7,524 nt of DNA from positions 1 to 7,524 of IMG/VR virus record IMGVR_UViG_2778260995_000017; one strand, written 5' to 3'. Under the pieces are notes generated by a model. That model was not told where the DNA came from. It worked only from the letters and a program-made list of their open reading frames with translations, and searched no databases. The first letter of the stretch is position 1. Each line of letters opens with the position of its first letter. Shown here one piece after another: positions 1 to 7,152 of the stretch. The position numbers were made by a program, and so were the translations under genes. The DNA comes from a virus. Its lineage: Duplodnaviria > Heunggongvirae > Uroviricota > Caudoviricetes.

Positions 1-288
1 TTAACGGATCAACAGCCAGACCAGCAGACACGCCACCACCGGCACAGCAAAATCCATCAGGCTTGCCACATCCCAAGCACGCGGATCAAAACCGCCCCAC
101 CACGGCATATTCATTCGCTTGCCATGCCCGAACATTTCAATCCAGCGATATTCTGCCTGGGTATGTTCACGAGCGATGAAGAATGTACAACCAGCTATCG
201 CACCGTAAGCCCAGTTTCCGGTAAAAAGACCAACCAGTACCTGCGCAGCCACAGCACAAAGTGCATGAAGTAAGGGGCTTATATCCAT
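1..288 (-). CDS. Hypothetical small membrane protein (95 aa, two or three predicted transmembrane segments)
   Basis: ATG at 286-288 is preceded by a strong AGGAGG Shine-Dalgarno (minus-strand reading AAAGGAGGAGTAATG), 13 nt after the stop of the 233-aa gene. Hydrophobic N-terminal stretch (LLHALCAVAAQVLVGLFTGNWAYGAIAGCTFFIA) and C-terminal stretch (LMDFAVPVVACLLVWLLIR) flank a Trp/Arg-rich loop. Stop TAA at 1-3, exactly at the window edge. Confidence 0.55.
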   Translation of the reverse strand: MDISPLLHALCAVAAQVLVGLFTGNWAYGAIAGCTFFIAREHTQAEYRWIEMFGHGKRMNMPWWGGFDPRAWDVASLMDFAVPVVACLLVWLLIR

Positions 289-301
289 TACTCCTCCTTT
301 A

Positions 302-1003
302 TCAGATATCGTTTCGGGAAGTTGATAACAACTTTAATTCTGACTGAAGTTCATCAACTCTTTCTGTCAGTTTCTGGATATGGTGAATCAGTGGAACAAC
401 CAGACGTTCGTACATTACACCTTCGGCAACAAGGCCATTGCTGGAAATAGCTTCCGGTGCATCATCTTCGTTAGCTGGTCGCCAGTGTACAAACTGAGGG
501 GCAATTTCTCCTACTTCCTCGGCAATCAATCCGTAGAATCCCCAGTCACGCCTGTCATTTTCGCATTGCGACCTGTACCACACAGGGCGCATCTTGAAAA
601 TGAGATCGGCGTGCTCTGAATCTATCGTCTCTACTGAATGTTTATAGCGAATAGACGATGTTGACCGCAGTACAGACGAAATTGCGGGGTCAGGATTAAG
701 ATAAAGGTTTGCCGCCGCTGTAGTCGTGGCCAAATTCCATAAATAAAACGCTTCTCGACCTGTCAGCGGGTAAAAATCACCGCCATAACGACCGCTTTCC
801 AGATCGTTCGCTTCCACTTTGTTTTTCAGCTTATTATCAACTTCAGTTTTTGTGTATCTGGTGCTGATATCCTGCTTTGCACTGGTCATATCAGTCTGAA
901 GCGTTGATACTTTTCCGTTAATTGAGGAAATATCTTCCTTAGCTTTACTGACATCTCCCTTTAGCGTGGTAATGTCTCCCGGAATTACTGTCGATGTAGC
1001 CAT
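302..1003 (-). CDS. Coiled-coil protein (233 aa) with a C-terminal peptidase S74-like intramolecular chaperone domain (tail-fibre / endosialidase C-terminal chaperone type)
   Basis: ATG at 1001-1003 with a GAGGAAG ribosome-binding site in the 9-bp gap after the upstream stop. The N-terminal half is repeat-like and coiled-coil-like (DITTLKGDVSKAKEDISSINGKVSTLQTDMTSAKQDIS). The C-terminal half carries motifs I recognise from S74 chaperone domains: SSIRYK (the S-D-x-R-L-K-type site holding the nucleophilic Ser and the Lys), GLIAEEV, NGLVAEGVMYERLVVPLIHHIQKL, and a terminal coiled coil. Stop TGA at 302-304. Confidence 0.7.
   Translation of the reverse strand: MATSTVIPGDITTLKGDVSKAKEDISSINGKVSTLQTDMTSAKQDISTRYTKTEVDNKLKNKVEANDLESGRYGGDFYPLTGREAFYLWNLATTTAAANLYLNPDPAISSVLRSTSSIRYKHSVETIDSEHADLIFKMRPVWYRSQCENDRRDWGFYGLIAEEVGEIAPQFVHWRPANEDDAPEAISSNGLVAEGVMYERLVVPLIHHIQKLTERVDELQSELKLLSTSRNDI
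329..658 (-). other. Peptidase S74-like (intramolecular chaperone, auto-processing) domain within the 233-aa protein
   Basis: Spans roughly aa 116-225 of the 233-aa protein, from the putative nucleophilic Ser in SSIRYK to the C-terminal helix. Boundaries are approximate and based on motif positions only. Confidence 0.55.
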
Positions 1004-1012
1004 TTTTCTTCC

Positions 1013-1294
1013 TCACATCCAGCCACGAAGTTGATGCTCAACAGCAACCACGTATTCATCGAATAATGACAGTGTTTTCACATCATTAATGATGCGCACG
1101 TTTACAAAATATCCGTCTTCCTTAACACATACCGGTTCGCCATCTTCATTCAGTTCTCCGGTTTCTTTGTACACGTTACCTATCACGTCAATAAGAATAT
1201 CATCCTGCATCGACTCATCATTATAATAGCCAATACTTCCCATAAAGGCCGAAAAGTCGACCCTGTCGGCAAATTTGAGTGTTAAATCTTTCAT
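1013..1294 (-). CDS. Hypothetical small acidic protein (93 aa), translationally coupled to stf; possible fibre-specific assembly factor
   Basis: Its ATG (1292-1294) overlaps the stf stop (1291-1293) as ATGA. A G-rich Shine-Dalgarno (GGGGGAGAG) lies upstream inside the stf 3' end. No recognisable similarity to lambda Tfa. Stop TGA at 1013-1015. The coding call is supported by the coupling and the ribosome-binding site; the function is inference. Confidence 0.55.
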   Translation of the reverse strand: MKDLTLKFADRVDFSAFMGSIGYYNDESMQDDILIDVIGNVYKETGELNEDGEPVCVKEDGYFVNVRIINDVKTLSLFDEYVVAVEHQLRGWM

Positions 1295-3678
1295 TTAATA
1301 CTCTCCCCCATTTGCGCATCAGTTAATTCTTTATGCCATATTCTGAAATTCCTGATGTGTCCAAACAAATGCCTCGTTCCGGCAGTTGTCTGCCCTCCTA
1401 TTCTTATTGCCGTTGATTTTATAGCACCACCCCATGAAGTACTGACTTTTGATGAAATGTTACCATTCAGCGACGCTGCTAAGCCGCCATCTTTGTCTAT
1501 TTTAACTCCATATATTCCAGTGTTTACAACTTCATTGTTACCAGTTCCTCTTGACGGGGAACCAACGCTAACATATGCCGATCCAGGAAGAACTGTTGAT
1601 GTCGGCCCTCGGAATGCAAATATAAAAGACTCTTCAGCGAATGATGATGTTGCGTTCAGGTCAAAAATTCTTGGTGCTCCGTTTGGCACAATATCCCAAT
1701 TCTTATTAACTTCAATAAGAACACTGATAGGTTGTTTATAAATATTGTTTCTTGCGGGAATAGTTACCATATCACTTGCACGGGTCGCCGCCGTCGTTCC
1801 TGATATAATAAAAGATGATACACAAGCCCCATTCTCTACTTGTGGGGTAGCCAGATAAATATAGTCACCTGATACGGTTGCCCCGCCCTGCTTAGGTGAA
1901 TACTGTATCTGAGAGCCTATTTTTAACTCACCATCAATTGCCTGAATTGTTGCCTCAGCAAAAATCCATCCTGTAGTTTCATCCTTCCTGACTCGTGCCG
2001 TAATTCTACCGGAAGCACCACCTGTCATATTAATTTCAAGCGTTTGCGTATCAATATACGCATCACCAAGAAAAGTTGTTGCACTACCGTCATATTTATC
2101 AAATCGGATACGCAACCTTACCTGCAGTTCTGTTTTAAAACGACATGATGTTGTCACGTACTTATTATCGCCTGAGACATCAACTGACTTTGTTGCAGCA
2201 ATTGATGCCATATTAATGGCTGAGGTTTGCCCAATCAGAGAATCGTTGCAGACAAACTTTCCATAGGTAAAACCAAAACTATCCGTCCCGGTTTCGGGAA
2301 CATCCATATTTGACGATCGCCCCCAACTGGCAGGGTTTTCCGAATTGAGCATGTAGTTTGTTCTTTGCCCCTCAATAAGCAGACCATCACGTTCAAATCG
2401 TGGCTCGTCAATGGCAGCCTCTGTCAGCACACCAGATTTATTAATATAGGTTGCTTTCGACGCTCGTTTAAATTTAACAATCTTGTCGCCAGGCATCGTT
2501 ATTTCATCGTCACCAATAACAATTCTTTTATATGATGGCGAAAAGCCCGTAATCATATCCAGTGAATCGTTAAATGGTATCCACACATCAGGCAGCGGCT
2601 GTAAGACATATTTATACGGCTCTGCTGCCTGGCTTGCATACTCTCTGGCTGCGTCTTCACTTGCTTTTGCAGCCGTCTGGCTTGCTGCCGATGCTTTCGC
2701 CGAGTTCGCCGCCGCTGTTTCGCTCGCCTTTGCGTTGGTTTCACTGGTTTTTGCTGCTTTTTGACTGTTAGCTGATGCAGTGGCAGAAGCAGCCGCCGCG
2801 CTTGCAGAACCAGCTGCAGCACTCTCGCTTTCGGCTGCTGCATCCTGACTGCTTTTCGCCGCAGTTTCGCTGGCTTTTGCATTCGTTTCGCTGGTCTTCG
2901 CTGCCGTCTGACTGGACTTTGCGTTAGTTTCACTCGTCTTCGCGGCTTTCTGGCTGTTAGCCGCAGCAGTTGCTGATCCAGCTGCTGAAGTCGCAGAACC
3001 GGCTGCCGCGCTCTCGCTTTCGGCTGCTGCATCCTGACTGCTTTTCGCCGCAGTTTCACTGGCTTTGGCATTCGTTTCGCTGGTTTTCGCTGCCGTCTGG
3101 CTGGACTTTGCGTTGGTTTCGCTCGTCTTTGCGGCTGTCTCGCTGTTTTTCGCGTTGGTTTCTGATTTTTTGGCTGCTGTCGCGGAGTTTGCCGATGCAG
3201 TCTGCGAGGACGCTGCCGCCTGTGCGCTGTTAGCTGCATTCGTTTCTGAGGTTTTCGCCGCGTTCTTCGATGAAGCCGCTGCAGTTTCGGATTTCTTTGC
3301 CGCCGCTGCGCTCTGAGAGGCGGCTTCGGCGTTGCGTGCCGCTTCTTCCACCATTTCCTCAAAACGGCGCAATGCCTCCGGCATAACATCCTCTTCCGTC
3401 ATGGCACCGAGAAAATCATTCAGCGTACCTGGTCTGGAACCTTCATAGACGGTAATGGTCCCGGCATGTGAAGGCGGAAAACCTTCAACTAGCAGGGTGA
3501 CGCTGTACTGGCCATACTCAACATCCATGCTGTAACGCCCGGCTTCATCCGGATTTTCAGAGGCCACCGTGTTCACCAGTACCGTGGTGCTGTTACGCTT
3601 TGCCTTCAGTTGAATAGTGCAGTTCTGTATTGGTTTTCCCGCACCATCTTTCAGCACACCTGAAATCTGTACTGCCAT
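1291..3678 (-). CDS. stf: Side tail fibre protein (Stf-like): lambda-Stf-type N-terminal domain, Ala/Ser/Thr-rich repetitive shaft, and a distal domain of about 440 aa unlike lambda's
   Basis: ATG at 3676-3678 is preceded by GGAG (minus-strand reading TGGAGTGAGTATG). The ORF track starts two codons earlier at a GTG (3682-3684); I prefer the ATG because MAVQISGVLKDGAGKPIQNCTIQLKAKRNSTTV...RYSMDVEYGQYSV...GFPPSHAGTITVYE aligns with the lambda Stf N-terminus (MAVKISGVLKDG...) as I recall it. The C-terminal tail ...TRHLFGHIRNFRIWHKELTDAQM resembles the end of concanavalin A-like / laminin-G-type lectin domains, which is a tentative reading. Stop TGA at 1291-1293. Confidence 0.85.
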   Translation of the reverse strand: MAVQISGVLKDGAGKPIQNCTIQLKAKRNSTTVLVNTVASENPDEAGRYSMDVEYGQYSVTLLVEGFPPSHAGTITVYEGSRPGTLNDFLGAMTEEDVMPEALRRFEEMVEEAARNAEAASQSAAAAKKSETAAASSKNAAKTSETNAANSAQAAASSQTASANSATAAKKSETNAKNSETAAKTSETNAKSSQTAAKTSETNAKASETAAKSSQDAAAESESAAAGSATSAAGSATAAANSQKAAKTSETNAKSSQTAAKTSETNAKASETAAKSSQDAAAESESAAAGSASAAAASATASANSQKAAKTSETNAKASETAAANSAKASAASQTAAKASEDAAREYASQAAEPYKYVLQPLPDVWIPFNDSLDMITGFSPSYKRIVIGDDEITMPGDKIVKFKRASKATYINKSGVLTEAAIDEPRFERDGLLIEGQRTNYMLNSENPASWGRSSNMDVPETGTDSFGFTYGKFVCNDSLIGQTSAINMASIAATKSVDVSGDNKYVTTSCRFKTELQVRLRIRFDKYDGSATTFLGDAYIDTQTLEINMTGGASGRITARVRKDETTGWIFAEATIQAIDGELKIGSQIQYSPKQGGATVSGDYIYLATPQVENGACVSSFIISGTTAATRASDMVTIPARNNIYKQPISVLIEVNKNWDIVPNGAPRIFDLNATSSFAEESFIFAFRGPTSTVLPGSAYVSVGSPSRGTGNNEVVNTGIYGVKIDKDGGLAASLNGNISSKVSTSWGGAIKSTAIRIGGQTTAGTRHLFGHIRNFRIWHKELTDAQMGESIK
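2750..3140. repeat. Direct tandem duplication of a 189-bp unit (63 codons) inside stf, within a longer Ala/Ser/Thr-rich low-complexity stretch (about 2620-3340)
   Basis: Two near-identical adjacent DNA copies: for example CTCTCGCTTTCGGCTGCTGCATCCTGACTGC occurs at about 2822 and again at about 3011, and TTAGC...GCAG at 2768 and 2957. At protein level the unit KTSETNAKSSQTAAKTSETNAKASETAAKSSQDAAAESESAAAGSA...ANSQKAA occurs twice in frame. Flanking sequence holds degenerate partial copies. Confidence 0.85.
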
Positions 3679-3688
3679 ACTCACTCCA

Positions 3689-3717
3689 CAAATAAAAAAG
3701 GCGCCATTTCTGGCGCC
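3689..3717 (-). terminator. Rho-independent terminator-like hairpin plus T-tract immediately downstream of J
   Basis: Minus-strand reading GGCGCC-AGAAAT-GGCGCC followed by TTTTTTTATTTG. Plus-strand stem arms are 3700-3705 and 3712-3717, and the A-run is 3691-3699. Lies between the J stop (3739) and the stf ribosome-binding site. Confidence 0.6.
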
Positions 3718-3738
3718 CGTATTGGGGTTATAAATATT

Positions 3739-4200
3739 TCAACGGATACTGATACCGGAAGCAGCTTTTTTGGTCACAATTACCGTACAGTCTGTGATGT
3801 TACCTGCGCCCTGATTGCCTTTCTGGAAAATCTTAAACTCCAGAGTGACGCTACCACCACCACTCGGCATATCAATAACCGCACTGTAACTACCGGGAAT
3901 GGCTCCTTTAGTTTCTCTGGATGCGATTAATACGCCGTTTTTGCGAACTTCAAAACCATAACCCGTATATCGCGTACCTCCCGGGTTATTACCGCTCCCC
4001 GGATCGTCATACGCCATACCGTTAAAAATAATGGGCGGAATAATAATCTGGCGGTCAAAGTTATGATCATCGTAAATGGTGACTGTAACCGTCCCGTTTG
4101 GTGTTTCCGTGTTACCCCACGTACCAGCCTGTTTCGGGAATGATTTGGATACAGTTTTAACGAAGTCACCTCTGACCTGGTTCGCCTCCAGCATGCCCTT
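3739..4200 (-). other. Divergent C-terminal (putative receptor-binding) segment of J
   Basis: Roughly the C-terminal 150 codons of J. The protein sequence departs from the lambda-like body here, and the DNA becomes visibly more AT-rich than the GC-rich J body upstream (about 4300-7150). Boundary is approximate. Confidence 0.55.
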
Positions 4201-7152
4201 AATCGTACAGTTTTCATTTATCGTGACGTTGTTGAGCGTCCCGGAGTTCGCATTCACGTTACCGCTGATATCGGCATTTTTCGCCGTCAGCCGCCCGTCC
4301 GGTGTCAGGGAAAATACCGGCGGATTGCCGCCGCTGGTAATGGTGGGAGCCGTCAGATACTTCAGGAACACTTCGTTCATGAATATCTGGTTGCCCTGCG
4401 CCACAAACATCGGCGTTTCATTCCCGTTTGCCGGGTCAATAAACGCAATACGGTTAGCGGCAACCAGGAACTGGCTCAGTTTGCCTTCCTCCGTATCCTC
4501 CATGCTGAGGCCAAGCCCCGCGACATAATGCCTACCGTCTTCGGTCTGCTCAATTTTGACGCCCCACATGGCATTCCATTTATCGTTGGCGTCTTTCCAC
4601 TCTTTCGAAAACTGATCCAGTCTGCTGGCGTTATCCTCCGTCAGGTCGACTTTTTCCAGCAGTTCCTTGCCGAGATGGGATTCGGTTATCTGGCCTTTGA
4701 AAAAATCCAGGTAACCTTCCGCATCATCGCTCGCCCGACCGACGGCCTCCACGAATGCCGATTTGCCAACAGTATTCACACTGCGGATATAAAAATAATA
4801 ATCATGGCCCGGTTTGATATTGATACTGGCAGCTATCCAGTACAGCGCCGTGCCAAGATAGCGGGCTGTGGTTTCAACCTGCCTGATATCCGCAATCCGC
4901 TTTTCCGAGAACCAGAACTCAAACTGTACCGTCGGGTCATAAACGGCAAGATGCGGCGTGGCGGTGATCTGAAAATAGCCCGGCGTCAGCTCAATCCGCG
5001 ACGGTGCTGCCGGTGCGGCAATCCGGAACGATACCGATGCCGGATCGCCCTGCTGCCCCCAGGCATTTGCCGCCCGGACTGTCAGCCTGTAATTTCCCAG
5101 CGCCAGTTGCCTGAAGCGGTATGTGGTTTCCGTCGTCCGGGTCGTGCTGACCAGCCGCTCACTGCCGTCATCCGCTGCCACGGTCAGGCGAAGCATAAAG
5201 CTCACCCCCTTCACCACCTTCGGCGTATCCCAGCGCGCCAGCACCTGGTATTCCCCACTGTCTGCGGTGACTTCGGCAGTCAGGTGCTGCACCGCTGGCG
5301 GCGTGACACCATTCATCGTGCCGCTCTGGTCGCCGTCAAAGTGCGCCCCGTTATCCACAATGGCTTCTTTTTCCGGGACATGCTGCACGGCAGTGATGGC
5401 ATACGTGCCGCCATCGTTCTCACGGATACTCACACAACGGAACAGGCGCTGGCGCAGCGTCGGCAGCTTCAGCCCCCACACGCTGTACTCGGCAACGCCG
5501 TCAGGAACCCGGCTCACTTTCACCTTCACGCCGTCGGTGACGGACTGGACCTCCACGCTGACCGGATTCCCCTGTCCGTCAACCAGGCTTATCAGCGCGG
5601 TGCCGGAGGATGGCAGCGTGATTTCACGGTCGAGCGTCAGTGTCCGGGTCTGGCTGTTCACCGCCAGCACGCGCCCGCCGATGCTGATCCCCGCATAGTC
5701 ATCATCACAGATTTCAATGACATCACCCGGTACATGGCGAAGCCCTTCGGCCCCCACGCTGAAGTCCACGGTCTGCGTTTCCAGCAGTTCCGTTTTAATC
5801 AGCCACAGCCCGGCGCGGTGCGCCTGCCCCCGGCTGGTACAGCCAAAGGCATCCATCTTCGTGACGTTACGACCGTAACGGGCAATGGCCTGCGTATCTT
5901 CAACAAGCTCTGTCGCCGTCTCCCAGCCGTTGTTCGGGTCAATCCAGTTCACCTCAACGGCATTATGGCGGTCCTTCAGGGCGCTGAAGCTGTAGCGGAA
6001 CGGCGCGCCATCATCCGGCATCACCACATTACTGCGGTTATAGGTCCACACCTTATCTGATGGTCGGTCCTGCACGAACGTCAGCGTCTGCCCGTTCCAT
6101 ACCGGCATACAGCGCATCGCCGAGCAGAAATCACTGAGCACATCCCACGCCTTACGCTGCGTGGTCAGCCAGGCATTACAGGTGATGCGCGGCTCCGTGC
6201 CGCCAAAACCGTCCGGCACTGACTGGTCGCAGTACTGGCCGATGACATACAGCGCCCATTTATCCACATCCGCCGCACCAAGACGTTTCCCCATGCCGTA
6301 GCGCGGGTGGGTCAGCATATCCCACAGACACCAGGCCGGGTTGTTGCTGTATGCCGGCTTAAACGTTCCGTCCCAGATACCGCTGTATTGCCGCGTCTGC
6401 GGGTTATAGTTCGACGGCACCTGCAGAATGCGCCCGCGAAGATGATAATTACGGCTCACCTGCTGGCTGCCGAACTGCTCCGAGTCCACCTGCACGCCGA
6501 CCAGTGCCGTGTTCGGGTAGCACTGTTTCACATCGATGATTTCGGTGTATGACGACCAGAGCGTTTTGTTCTGCAGCTGGTCTGTGGTGCTGTCCGGCGT
6601 CATCCTGCGCATCCGGATATTAAACGGGCGCGGCGGCAGGCTACCCACCACCACCGAGGCCAGATACTGCGAGGTGGTTTTGCCCTTAATGGTGATGTCT
6701 TTTTCCGTCACCCAGCCACCGTTACGTTGTATCTGAACCAGCAGACGGACTTCCGACGGATTCCTGTCACCCTTTGAGGAGGTTTCCACCAGTGCCTGTA
6801 CACCGAAGGTAAAGCGCAGACGGTCGATGTTTGCAGACGTAATGGTGCGGGTGATCGGCGTGTCATATTTCACTTCCGTACCCAGCACCGTCTCGGAGCC
6901 GGAGGATTCAAACCCCTCCGGCGGTGTCTGCTCCTGCTCACCGGCACGGAACACCACCGTGACACCGGAGATGTTGGTATTCCCCTCAGTGTCCAGCACC
7001 GGCGTACTGTTCAGCAGCACGCTTTTTAATCCATCCACCGGACCTTCAACCGGCCCTTCGCTGATGGCATCGATCACACTCAGCAACTGCGTGGACTTCA
7101 GGTTATCCTTCGCTTCGCGCGGGGTATGCCCCTTACTGCTTCCTTTACCCAT
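3739..7152 (-). CDS. J: Host specificity protein J (central tail fibre / tip attachment protein, lambda gpJ family), 1137 aa, with a non-lambda C-terminal receptor-binding region
   Basis: ATG at 7150-7152 is preceded by GAGGA (minus-strand reading CGTGAGGAATG). The N-terminus [34 protein letters not shown]... and most of the body are near-identical to lambda gpJ as I recall it, and the length is close to lambda's. The last roughly 150 aa ([22 protein letters not shown]...[10 protein letters not shown]) do not match my recollection of the lambda LamB-binding C-terminus. Stop TGA at 3739-3741. Confidence 0.95.

What the first reader, a model, noticed from the sequence alone, without database searches (positions are those of the whole stretch)
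302..1003. Stand-alone small protein carrying a peptidase S74-like intramolecular chaperone domain
S74 chaperone domains (as in K1F endosialidase and T5 pb1) are normally the C-terminal, self-cleaved part of large trimeric fibre or tailspike proteins. Here the domain sits in a separate 233-aa gene behind only about 115 aa of coiled-coil sequence, while the adjacent large fibre protein appears to lack it. Possible explanations are a trans-acting chaperone for Stf, a small trimeric coiled-coil product released after autoproteolysis (cleavage predicted just before the Ser of SSIRYK, near aa 116), or a remnant of a split fibre gene. A trans-acting S74 chaperone would be mechanistically unusual.
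Basis: partly seen in the sequence, partly recalled or inferred. Interest (0 to 1): 0.6.

Follow-up and report, generated by a model that had tools for sequence, protein, structure and literature searches.

The report
Small self-chaperoned accessory tail fibre
This 233-residue gene in an E. coli lambda-like prophage most likely makes a short second tail-fibre subunit that folds with its own cleavable chaperone domain, not a helper for the big neighbouring fibre; it is common and fairly ordinary.

Summary
The ORF at 302-1003 (minus strand, 233 aa) carries a Peptidase_S74 intramolecular-chaperone (IMC) domain above Pfam's threshold, and Ser116 and Lys121 are invariant. The neighbouring 797-aa Stf has no such domain.

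The trans-chaperone interpretation is not supported. The gene fills a conserved slot (Stf-type fibre, then a 93-aa ORF, then this gene) found in lambdoid prophages, Drexlerviridae, a Nonagvirus and a P2-like myovirus.

All occupants of the slot share an N-terminal anchor (MATxTxIPxDIxxLK) but have different bodies:
- **Allele A** (this one): six heptads of coiled coil, a roughly 50-aa tip, then the IMC.
- **Allele B** (345 aa): a beta-rich body, then the IMC.
- **Two alleles with no S74 domain:** these are typical gp34/gp37-type fibres, each followed by its own Tfa (Caudo_TAP) chaperone gene.

The S74 alleles assort freely with Stf receptor-binding types. Phage-21-type loci have a homologous Stf and no S74 gene. 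The whole gene is under purifying selection (dN/dS about 0.15). Coiled-coil length differs between relatives only in multiples of seven residues.

Best reading: a small accessory fibre subunit with a cis-acting IMC, analogous to LtfB of phage DT57C. Autoproteolysis, virion location and receptor are untested. I classify it as a new member of a known kind, of modest interest.

The parts
302..1003 (-). Complete gene for the 233-aa S74-domain protein (allele A of the second-fibre slot); the stop codon is at 302-304
   Evidence: ORF list. Pfam and PHROG hits. Homologues of 221-269 aa in E. coli prophages and Drexlerviridae.
908..1003 (-). Conserved N-terminal anchor, aa 1-32 (MATSTVIPGDITTLKGDVSK...). 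It is shared with alleles whose bodies are otherwise unrelated.
   Evidence: Only this segment aligns with the 345-aa allele B, at 66-74% identity. The same motif heads two non-S74 fibre alleles. dN/dS is 0.12.
848..973 (-). Six-heptad coiled-coil stalk, aa 11-52 (a positions I11, V18, I25, V32, M39, I46; d positions L14, A21, I28, L35, A42)
   Evidence: Heptad register read directly from the sequence, and length differences between relatives of -14, -7, 0 and +21 residues only. AF2 predicts a helix at 11-47. Weak similarity to the P22 gp26 needle coiled coil.
659..808 (-). Short beta-rich tip, aa 66-115, directly upstream of the cleavage site; the presumed passenger that the IMC folds
   Evidence: Predicted strands at 77-114, from a low-confidence model. 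Homologous to the pre-IMC segment of long prophage fibres (GGFAIWDIGTTTSGANMYIDPNPG...RSTSS). dN/dS is 0.14.
641..658 (-). Predicted autoproteolysis motif S116-S-I-R-Y-K121 (Ser116 codon at 656-658, Lys121 codon at 641-643); the cleavage is inferred to fall between Thr115 and Ser116
   Evidence: Translation. Ser116 aligns to Pfam S74 profile position 1. S116 and K121 are invariant. They align to the TSGxxxK motifs of DT57C LtfA and LtfB. The cleavage itself is inferred from knowledge of the family.
305..658 (-). Intramolecular chaperone (IMC) domain, aa 116-233, ending in a C-terminal helix at aa 198-232
   Evidence: Pfam PF13884 at aa 116-172. A profile of the family aligns profile positions 116-239 to DT57C LtfA residues 948-1074, reaching its C-terminal helix. 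Helix 198-232 in the AF2 model is the best-scoring part of that model.
1013..1294 (-). The 93-aa ORF (p93) that always lies between the Stf-type fibre gene and the second-fibre slot; function unknown
   Evidence: PHROG 1361, unknown function. Present in all loci examined. No Pfam or NCBIfam hit. The AF2 model is unusable.
1291..3684 (-). Stf side tail fibre (797 aa), with a phage_tail_N anchor, Ala/Ser/Thr-rich repeats and a lectin-like C-terminal body; it has no S74 domain

Best explanation
The gene encodes a small accessory (second) tail-fibre subunit that carries its own cis-acting intramolecular chaperone. It is transcribed with stf, p93 and the downstream membrane-protein gene.

Proposed mechanism: three 233-aa chains are brought together by the C-terminal IMC (aa 116-233). 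The IMC templates folding of the short beta tip (aa 66-115) and zips up the six-heptad coiled coil (aa 11-52). Ser116, assisted by Lys121, then cuts the chain just before Ser116 and the IMC is discarded. What remains is a mature trimer of aa 1-115: an anchor, a coiled-coil stalk roughly 6 nm long (my estimate from 42 helical residues), and a small tip.

The conserved N-terminal anchor then docks the mini-fibre onto the horizontally mobile distal fibre module, meaning the Stf C-terminal body and/or p93. This would give a branched side fibre with a second, exchangeable tip.

Shown here: the domain, the Ser-Lys motif, the modular slot, purifying selection, the heptad constraint, and independence from the Stf type. 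Inferred: trimerisation, cleavage, the docking site, and any receptor binding.
For: S74 domain above Pfam threshold, with S116 and K121 invariant.

The slot is conserved. In the 80 loci with window-type p93, every contig that extends past p93 carries an S74 gene next, as allele A (233/234 aa) or allele B (345/346 aa).

The anchor pattern MATxTxIPxDIxxLK heads 106 complete ORFs in IMG/VR. Of these, 60 are A-like, 44 are B-like and 2 have no S74. The two without S74 carry Gp34_trimer, gp37_trimer and Gp53-like_C tail-fibre domains, and each is followed by a Caudo_TAP gene. A cis IMC and a trans Tfa therefore appear as alternative solutions for the same fibre slot.

The module (Stf distal body, p93, anchored fibre) occurs on four virion platforms whose primary-fibre N-termini differ: lambdoid, Drexlerviridae (KarlJaspers), Nonagvirus (ESCO3) and a P2-like myovirus (L251). 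This points to a docking site inside the module rather than on the tail.

dN/dS is 0.12-0.16 for the anchor, the tip and the IMC. Against KarlJaspers, synonymous sites are saturated (pS 0.85) while pN is 0.24.

Coiled-coil length differs between relatives only in multiples of 7 residues.

The gene is tightly spaced with good ribosome-binding sites, and no terminator-like site falls in or between p93, this gene and the downstream gene.

Precedent: the DT57C LtfA/LtfB branched fibre, in which both subunits carry pfam13884 (PMC4728585). The tail-fibre atlas also describes a fibre class with an N-terminal coiled coil and a C-terminal S74 domain (bioRxiv 10.1101/2024.10.28.620165).
Against: There is no direct evidence that the protein is in virions, that it cleaves itself, or that it binds Stf, p93 or any receptor.

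The mature part is very small (115 aa, of which about 50 aa form the tip), so a receptor-binding role is uncertain.

The AF2 monomer model is poor (pLDDT 55) and gave no meaningful fold matches.

The N-terminal anchor has no similarity to that of LtfB, so the LtfB comparison is an analogy only.

Presence of the S74 gene tracks the p93 type: window-type p93 goes with an S74 gene and 21-type p92 goes without one. This could be simple linkage or an unexplained functional link.

The BASEL authors annotated the KarlJaspers homologue as 'putative lateral tail fiber chaperone'.
Confidence: 0.68

Rival explanations
1. Trans-acting chaperone: the 233-aa protein, or its IMC, assists folding or trimerisation of the neighbouring Stf, which has no IMC of its own. 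The coiled-coil part would serve only as a scaffold.
For: The gene lies two genes downstream of stf in the same operon. Stf has no S74 domain. The passenger is unusually short. The KarlJaspers homologue is annotated 'putative lateral tail fiber chaperone'. In DT57C, LtfA appeared unstable without LtfB (PMC4728585), so accessory subunits can stabilise a primary fibre.
Against: Alleles A and B, whose IMCs are only weakly similar, pair with the same Stf C-terminal clusters, and each allele pairs with several clusters. Fifty-one loci with phage-21-type p92 have a homologous Stf and no S74 gene, and the KarlJaspers fibre tail (S74 present) is at least 80% identical to the phage 21 tail (S74 absent). 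The slot also holds non-S74 fibres that carry their own Tfa. The pre-cleavage region is conserved and heptad-constrained. As far as I know, all characterised IMCs act on the chain they are fused to (my own knowledge of the K1F endosialidase and T5 pb1 work, not checked here). The Stf C-terminus is a lectin-like body, a fold not known to me to depend on an IMC.
Confidence: 0.1
2. Independent appendage: the mature coiled-coil trimer attaches somewhere other than Stf, for example at the tail tip or as a neck or collar whisker. It could act as a fibritin-like sensor or assembly aid rather than as a branch of the side fibre.
For: Its architecture (N-terminal anchor, trimeric coiled coil, C-terminal folding nucleus) resembles T4 fibritin in outline (my own knowledge). 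No docking site on Stf or p93 could be identified. In DT57C, weak density possibly corresponding to LtfB was seen folded back on the tail tip (PMC10713586).
Against: The anchor stays conserved while the virion platform and the primary-fibre N-terminus change completely across lambdoid, T1-like, 9g-like and P2-like phages. Only the distal fibre module and p93 travel with it.
Confidence: 0.15
3. Non-functional remnant: a leftover distal piece of a longer fibre gene that was split or truncated and is now decaying in prophages.
For: PHROG 3299, a profile 1385 positions long, aligns the whole protein to its C-terminal end. The tip plus IMC is about 55% identical to the C-termini of long prophage fibres. 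Some allele-B copies are frameshifted or truncated (L008, L009, L011, L083).
Against: dN/dS is about 0.15 over the whole gene. All 26 allele-A copies examined were intact. The gene is conserved at 56-60% identity in about 45 virulent Escherichia and Shigella phages, which cannot carry dead genes for long. Indels keep the heptad register. It has its own start codon and ribosome-binding site.
Confidence: 0.03

Closest known systems
LtfB of T5-like phages DT57C and DT571/2 (second subunit of a branched lateral tail fibre; also phiEco32 gp15)
   Same: It is a separate fibre gene downstream of the primary fibre gene. It has its own C-terminal pfam13884 IMC, and the TSGxxxK motif aligns to S116 and K121. 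A short N-terminus is thought to dock it on the primary fibre, and the arrangement is spread by horizontal transfer (PMC4728585).
   Different: LtfB is 788 aa with a large receptor-binding body, whereas this protein leaves only 115 aa after cleavage. There is no N-terminal similarity. A 93-aa ORF sits between the two fibre genes here. The primary fibre here has no IMC, whereas LtfA has one.
C-terminal intramolecular chaperone domains of K1F endosialidase, T5 pb1 and GA-1 gp12 (MEROPS S74, Pfam PF13884)
   Same: Pfam match above threshold, Ser-x4-Lys at the start of the domain, and a C-terminal helix after the core.
   Different: In those proteins the IMC follows a passenger of several hundred to more than 1000 residues; here the passenger is 115 residues. 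Sequence profiles of this family reached only DT57C LtfA in the PDB, not the K1F or T5 chains.
BASEL / INPHARED 'putative lateral tail fiber chaperone' or 'chaperone of endosialidase' genes of Drexlerviridae (e.g. KarlJaspers bas06_0035, PeterMerian, Jahat_MG145, SECphi27)
   Same: These are true homologues over the full length (56-60% identity, 221-231 aa), in the same three-gene arrangement of Ltf, a 92-aa ORF and the S74 gene.
   Different: The coiled coil is two heptads shorter. They sit in virulent T1-like phages whose Ltf has a different N-terminal anchor. The name 'chaperone' is an annotation, not a tested function.
Tfa / gpK-type tail fibre assembly proteins (Pfam Caudo_TAP), the established trans-acting fibre chaperones
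   Same: They are encoded just downstream of the fibre gene they serve.
   Different: No sequence relation. In this slot Caudo_TAP genes accompany only the alleles without S74. That makes the IMC their functional alternative acting in cis, not an equivalent acting on Stf.

Membership tests
Peptidase S74 / intramolecular chaperone domain (PF13884) | Match to the Pfam model above its gathering score | tested here: met
   27.5 bits against a cut-off of 22; aa 116-172 match profile positions 1-57 of 58. Allele B scores 52.3 bits and the KarlJaspers homologue 22.4 bits.
Peptidase S74 / intramolecular chaperone domain (PF13884) | Conserved Ser and Lys five residues apart at the start of the domain (the catalytic dyad) | tested here: met
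   S116 and K121 in TSSIRYK. Both are invariant in 23 sequences down to 31% identity. They align to the TSGIEYK and TSGRDFK motifs of DT57C LtfA and LtfB.
Peptidase S74 / intramolecular chaperone domain (PF13884) | C-terminal position in the polypeptide, ending in a helical coiled-coil segment | tested here: met
   The domain runs from aa 116 to the C-terminus. Predicted helix at 198-232 with pLDDT about 77-81. It aligns to the C-terminal helix of LtfA.
Peptidase S74 / intramolecular chaperone domain (PF13884) | Trimeric IMC fold | tested here: inconclusive
   The AF2 monomer model has a mean pLDDT of 54.9, and Foldseek against the PDB gave no hit with E<1. No multimer prediction was available.
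Peptidase S74 / intramolecular chaperone domain (PF13884) | Autoproteolytic release of the domain after folding | not testable with these tools
   Needs expression followed by SDS-PAGE and mass spectrometry. The 116-aa database 'proteins' that end at RSTS are contig-end artefacts, not evidence of cleavage.
Second subunit of a branched lateral tail fibre (LtfB-like arrangement) | Separate gene in the fibre operon downstream of the primary fibre gene | tested here: met
   The order stf, p93, S74 gene was found wherever the contig extended far enough among 80 loci, and also in KarlJaspers, ESCO3, 2G7b and IdasGreatGrand.
Second subunit of a branched lateral tail fibre (LtfB-like arrangement) | Short N-terminal segment conserved across alleles whose bodies differ (an attachment module) | tested here: met
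   Aa 1-32 are shared with allele B and with two gp34/gp37-type fibres that lack S74.
Second subunit of a branched lateral tail fibre (LtfB-like arrangement) | Sequence homology of the N-terminus to LtfB or phiEco32 gp15 | tested here: not met
   BLASTP against DT57C LtfB aligns only the IMC (27% identity). The LtfB N-terminus, MSRPLMPKSGAMAPYVV..., is unrelated. phiEco32 gp15 was not retrieved.
Second subunit of a branched lateral tail fibre (LtfB-like arrangement) | Physical attachment to the primary fibre and its own receptor specificity | not testable with these tools
   Attachment is inferred only from co-transfer of the module across four virion platforms.
Trans-acting tail fibre chaperone (Tfa/Caudo_TAP-like, or the proposed 'lateral tail fiber chaperone') | Homology to a known fibre-assembly chaperone family | tested here: not met
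   No Caudo_TAP or other chaperone family appears in the Pfam, NCBIfam or PHROG results.
Trans-acting tail fibre chaperone (Tfa/Caudo_TAP-like, or the proposed 'lateral tail fiber chaperone') | Co-variation with, and requirement by, the C-terminal domain of the client fibre | tested here: not met
   Alleles A, B and 'absent' all occur with Stf C-terminal cluster 0. Both A and B occur with clusters 3, 4, 5 and 6. Cluster 1 occurs with the gene (KarlJaspers) and without it (phage 21 type).

The most novel reading that the evidence does not exclude
The 115-aa coiled-coil trimer may not be a receptor-binding branch at all. It could be an assembly or regulatory element of the side fibre, released by an IMC. 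For example, it might be a fibritin-like clamp that works together with p93 to mount or retract Stf, or the IMC might also act in trans on Stf. In that case the strict link between p93 type and presence of the gene would reflect a p93-mini-fibre complex.
Probability: 0.12. Interest if true: 0.6.

Novelty: new member of a known kind. Interest (0 to 1): 0.3.

Why it matters
Side-fibre modules decide which E. coli strains lambdoid and T1-like phages, and phage-derived delivery particles, can adsorb to. This work suggests the module holds a second, separately exchangeable fibre slot. The slot has a portable N-terminal anchor and at least four body types. That offers a simple handle for retargeting, and it explains why this gene is so common: at least 80% of window positions 1-1300, which hold this gene and its two neighbours, is found in 723 of 5426 complete E. 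coli genomes.

It also corrects a misleading annotation ('lateral tail fiber chaperone' or 'chaperone of endosialidase') that is spreading through phage genome records.

The protein would be among the smallest IMC passengers I am aware of, which makes it a convenient minimal system for studying IMC-driven trimer folding. None of this changes the current understanding of how IMCs work.

Tried and rejected
1. AF2 on the 233-aa protein with a 23-sequence alignment gave a mean pLDDT of 54.9. This is expected for an intertwined trimer modelled as a monomer. Foldseek against the PDB returned only noise, so the fold evidence was dropped.

2. AF2 on p93 with a shallow alignment gave pLDDT 42 and was unusable.

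3. HMMER of aa 1-60 against 1.8 billion representative proteins gave 531 hits. Almost all were multi-stretch matches to generic heptad repeats (DISTLQSDVSTAQ...) inside long fibre-like or surface proteins, so they are not specific to the anchor.

5. The 116-aa database entries ending exactly at ...RSTS looked like natural 'pre-cleaved' genes. They are ORFs cut by contig ends.

6. A profile search of the PDB reached only DT57C LtfA, not the K1F or T5 IMC structures.

7. I looked for an Stf segment that distinguishes loci with and without the S74 gene. None was found beyond the hypervariable patch. Only the p93 type tracks presence of the gene, and that may be linkage.

8. Literature searches found no experimental study of this protein. 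One search was badly framed and returned irrelevant phosphosite papers, and the Eligo lambda-Stf engineering paper does not mention the gene.

9. The genome-contig scan found full-length relatives in only three records. One is an Escherichia genome. The other two are short contigs filed under Collinsella and Corallococcus, which are probably contamination.

Full report
**What the window is.** All genes are on the minus strand. In order they are the end of a gpI-like gene, a 1137-aa gpJ (3739-7152), a terminator-like hairpin (3699-3718), a 797-aa Stf (1291-3684), a 93-aa ORF called p93 here (1013-1294), the 233-aa ORF of the finding (302-1003), and a 95-aa ORF (1-288) that is annotated as a membrane protein in phage 21. 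Megablast places the region among lambdoid Escherichia phages. 2G7b and IdasGreatGrand are about 93% identical over roughly three quarters of window positions 1-3700. In the complete-genome set, 723 of 5426 E. coli genomes hold at least 80% of window positions 1-1300. The genes are tightly packed with good ribosome-binding sites: GAGGAAG sits before the 233-aa ORF, 9 nt after the p93 stop. No terminator-like site falls in or between p93, the 233-aa ORF and the 95-aa ORF.

**Checking the observation.** Pfam Peptidase_S74 (PF13884) matches aa 116-172 to profile positions 1-57 of 58, at 27.5 bits against a gathering score of 22. The motif T115-S116-S-I-R-Y-K121 was confirmed by translation. S116 and K121 are invariant in a 23-sequence alignment that reaches 31% identity. 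They align with the TSGIEYK and TSGRDFK motifs of DT57C LtfA and LtfB. Stf has phage_tail_N at its N-terminus and no S74 domain. Its C-terminal body matches NCBIfam GTA_spike_fiber, and its homologues give sub-threshold Laminin_G_3 hits.

One refinement is needed. The 115 residues ahead of the domain are not uniform coiled coil. Aa 11-52 form six clean heptads, with a positions I, V, I, V, M, I and d positions L, A, I, L, A. Aa 66-115 are predicted beta strands, though the model is low-confidence. That segment is homologous to the stretch that precedes the IMC in long prophage fibres and in PHROGs annotated as tail fibre.

**The gene belongs to a mobile three-gene module.** The order is the same in several phage groups: a fibre with this Stf-type C-terminal body, then p93, then the S74 gene. 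It is seen in lambdoid phages (2G7b, IdasGreatGrand), in the virulent Drexlerviridae phage KarlJaspers, and in the Nonagvirus ESCO3. The N-terminal parts of the large fibre are unrelated between these groups, while roughly the last 430 residues are homologous. tblastn finds the 233-aa protein at 55-60% identity over its full length in about 45 virulent Escherichia and Shigella phages. There it is annotated variously as hypothetical, 'chaperone of endosialidase', 'tail fiber protein' or, in the BASEL phages, 'putative lateral tail fiber chaperone'.

**The slot holds interchangeable alleles behind a common anchor.** I fetched 80 IMG/VR loci through window-type p93. Wherever the contig continues past p93, the next gene is an S74 gene. 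It is either allele A (233/234 aa, the window type) or allele B (345/346 aa, the 2G7b type). A and B align only over their first roughly 32 residues (MATSTVIPxDIxTLKxDVSK, 66-74% identity) and weakly over the IMC.

I then scanned IMG/VR with a degenerate DNA pattern for the anchor (M-A-T-x-T-x-I-P-x-D-I-x-x-L-K). This returned 106 complete ORFs: 60 A-like, 44 B-like and two of a different kind. Those two are L245 (330 aa) and L251 (340 aa). They sit in the same position after a Stf-type C-terminus and a p92 gene. They have no S74 domain and instead carry Gp34_trimer, gp37_trimer and Gp53-like_C tail-fibre domains. Each is followed immediately by a Caudo_TAP (Tfa) gene. L251 lies in a P2-like myovirus, with Baseplate_J and Tail_P2_I genes upstream.

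The slot therefore encodes a small tail-fibre subunit. Its tip is folded either by a fused IMC or by a separate Tfa. This is the strongest argument that the window's IMC serves its own polypeptide.

**Tests of the trans-chaperone idea.**
- I clustered the last 170 residues of the large fibre at 80% identity and cross-tabulated the clusters against the occupant of the slot. Cluster 0 pairs with A (3 loci), B (35) and no S74 gene (1). Clusters 3, 4, 5 and 6 each pair with both A and B. A chaperone tuned to the Stf head would be expected to co-vary with it, and this one does not.
- Fifty-one loci fetched through the phage-21-type p92 were examined. All but one outlier carry that p92 type, and none has an S74 gene; wherever the contig extends, p92 is followed after 12 nt by the membrane-protein gene. 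The KarlJaspers fibre tail (S74 gene present) falls in the same 80% cluster as the phage 21 tail (S74 gene absent). L109 combines a window-like Stf up to about aa 640 with a 21-type distal end and has no S74 gene.
- The only feature that tracks presence of the gene is the p93 type. Because the two genes are adjacent, this may be linkage, and I could not resolve it.

**Tests of the 'remnant' idea.** I compared 17 distinct allele-A nucleotide sequences. dN/dS is 0.12 for aa 1-30, 0.14 for aa 66-115, 0.13 for the IMC and 0.16 overall. Aa 31-65 show too few changes to judge. Against KarlJaspers, synonymous sites are saturated (pS 0.85) while pN is 0.24 in every region. The length of the coiled-coil segment differs between family members by -14, -7, 0 or +21 residues only, so the heptad register is preserved. 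All allele-A copies examined were intact, whereas four allele-B copies were frameshifted or truncated. The pre-cleavage part is thus a selected structural element.

PHROG 3299 and several prophage fibres show that the same coil-tip-IMC unit also occurs as the distal end of long single-chain fibres. This parallels the T5 Ltf versus DT57C LtfA/LtfB situation described in PMC4728585 and noted for small siphoviruses in PMC8594841.

**Most likely mechanism.** The steps that are inferred are marked as such in the Best explanation section. The IMC trimerises three chains and templates the short beta tip and the coiled coil. Ser116, assisted by Lys121, cuts before Ser116. The IMC leaves. A trimer of aa 1-115 then docks by its N-terminal anchor on the distal fibre module. 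The docking site is inferred from the fact that the anchor stays constant while the virion platform and the primary-fibre N-terminus change, with only the Stf distal body and p93 travelling along. Whether the tiny tip of allele A binds a receptor is open. Allele B and the gp37-type alleles have bodies large enough to be plausible receptor-binding domains.

**Comparison with what is known.** The closest functional analogue is LtfB of DT57C, which is a separate fibre gene with its own pfam13884 IMC and is thought to attach through the primary fibre (PMC4728585, PMC10713586). It is not a sequence relative outside the IMC: identity is 27% there, and the N-termini are unrelated. The tail-fibre atlas preprint describes a fibre class with an N-terminal coiled coil and a C-terminal S74 domain, and reports that S74 domains are absent from mature virion maps (10.1101/2024.10.28.620165). 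I found no experimental work on this protein family.

**Verdict.** The feature is real, but the unusual reading is not supported. It is a widespread, conserved, minimal member of the IMC-bearing accessory tail-fibre class, sitting in a modular second-fibre slot that had not, to my knowledge, been described as such. Interest is modest (0.3). About 0.12 probability remains for a non-canonical assembly or regulatory role involving p93.

Noticed in passing
window 1013-1294 (-): The 93-aa ORF (p93, PHROG 1361, no known function) always sits between the Stf-type fibre gene and the second-fibre slot. At least four sequence types exist, about 50% identical to one another. The window type is always followed by an S74 gene, and the phage-21 type never is. 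It stays 89-96% identical while the Stf head varies widely, so it does not co-vary with the receptor-binding patch.
   Followed up: partly
window about 1405-1764 (-), Stf aa 641-760: This is a hypervariable patch in the Stf C-terminal body. Identity to other alleles (2G7b, phage 21, ESCO3, L109) is only about 20%. It is flanked by segments that are 90-100% identical and by a conserved last roughly 37 residues (...RNFRIWHKxLTDxQ...). It is probably the receptor-binding surface and a recombination cassette; L109 has a crossover near aa 640.
   Followed up: partly
window 2728-3147: Stf contains a 189-nt (63-aa) tandem repeat, 2.2 copies at 86% identity, nested with 42-nt and 21-nt sub-repeats that encode KTSETNAK/SSQTAAK motifs. 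The region has a strong AT skew (-0.57). Stf length differences between loci map here.
   Followed up: no
window 3699-3718 (-) and 3685-3738: A strong terminator-like hairpin (GGGCGCCAGAAATGGCGCC followed by a T run) lies between J and stf, as annotated in phage 21. There is no lom gene between J and stf here, whereas 2G7b and IdasGreatGrand carry lom at that position. Stf is listed with a GTG start, and the related phage 21 Stf begins at the Met two codons downstream.
   Followed up: no
window 1-288 (-): A 95-aa ORF (PHROG 1443) ends the operon in the lambdoid loci that extend that far, whether or not an S74 gene is present; in two loci (L014, L035) a different ORF follows allele B. It is annotated in phage 21 as a membrane protein with two transmembrane segments. 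It is absent from the Drexlerviridae version of the module. It may be a moron or exclusion gene.
   Followed up: no
L137-L140 (metagenome and MAG contigs): Several independent assemblies break exactly at the first codon of the IMC, producing 116-aa 'proteins' that end in ...RSTS. This suggests the IMC-coding DNA is a repeat shared between fibre genes of co-resident prophages and a likely recombination point.
   Followed up: partly
L142 (Collinsella MAG) and L143 (Corallococcus exercitus), short contigs: These contigs, 2.8 kb and 441 bp long, are 96-97% identical to this E. coli prophage gene but are filed under unrelated organisms. This is almost certainly contamination in those assemblies.
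   Followed up: no
L001 1769-2067 (phage 2G7b): Two small fragments annotated as tail fibre assembly protein lie downstream of the module in 2G7b. They look like vestiges of a lambda-type tfa gene left behind when this Stf module replaced a Tfa-dependent one.
   Followed up: no
L064 6292-7017: One allele-A copy carries an in-frame 7-aa duplication (IAEEVGE) inside the most conserved IMC motif. Its effect on function is unknown.
   Followed up: no
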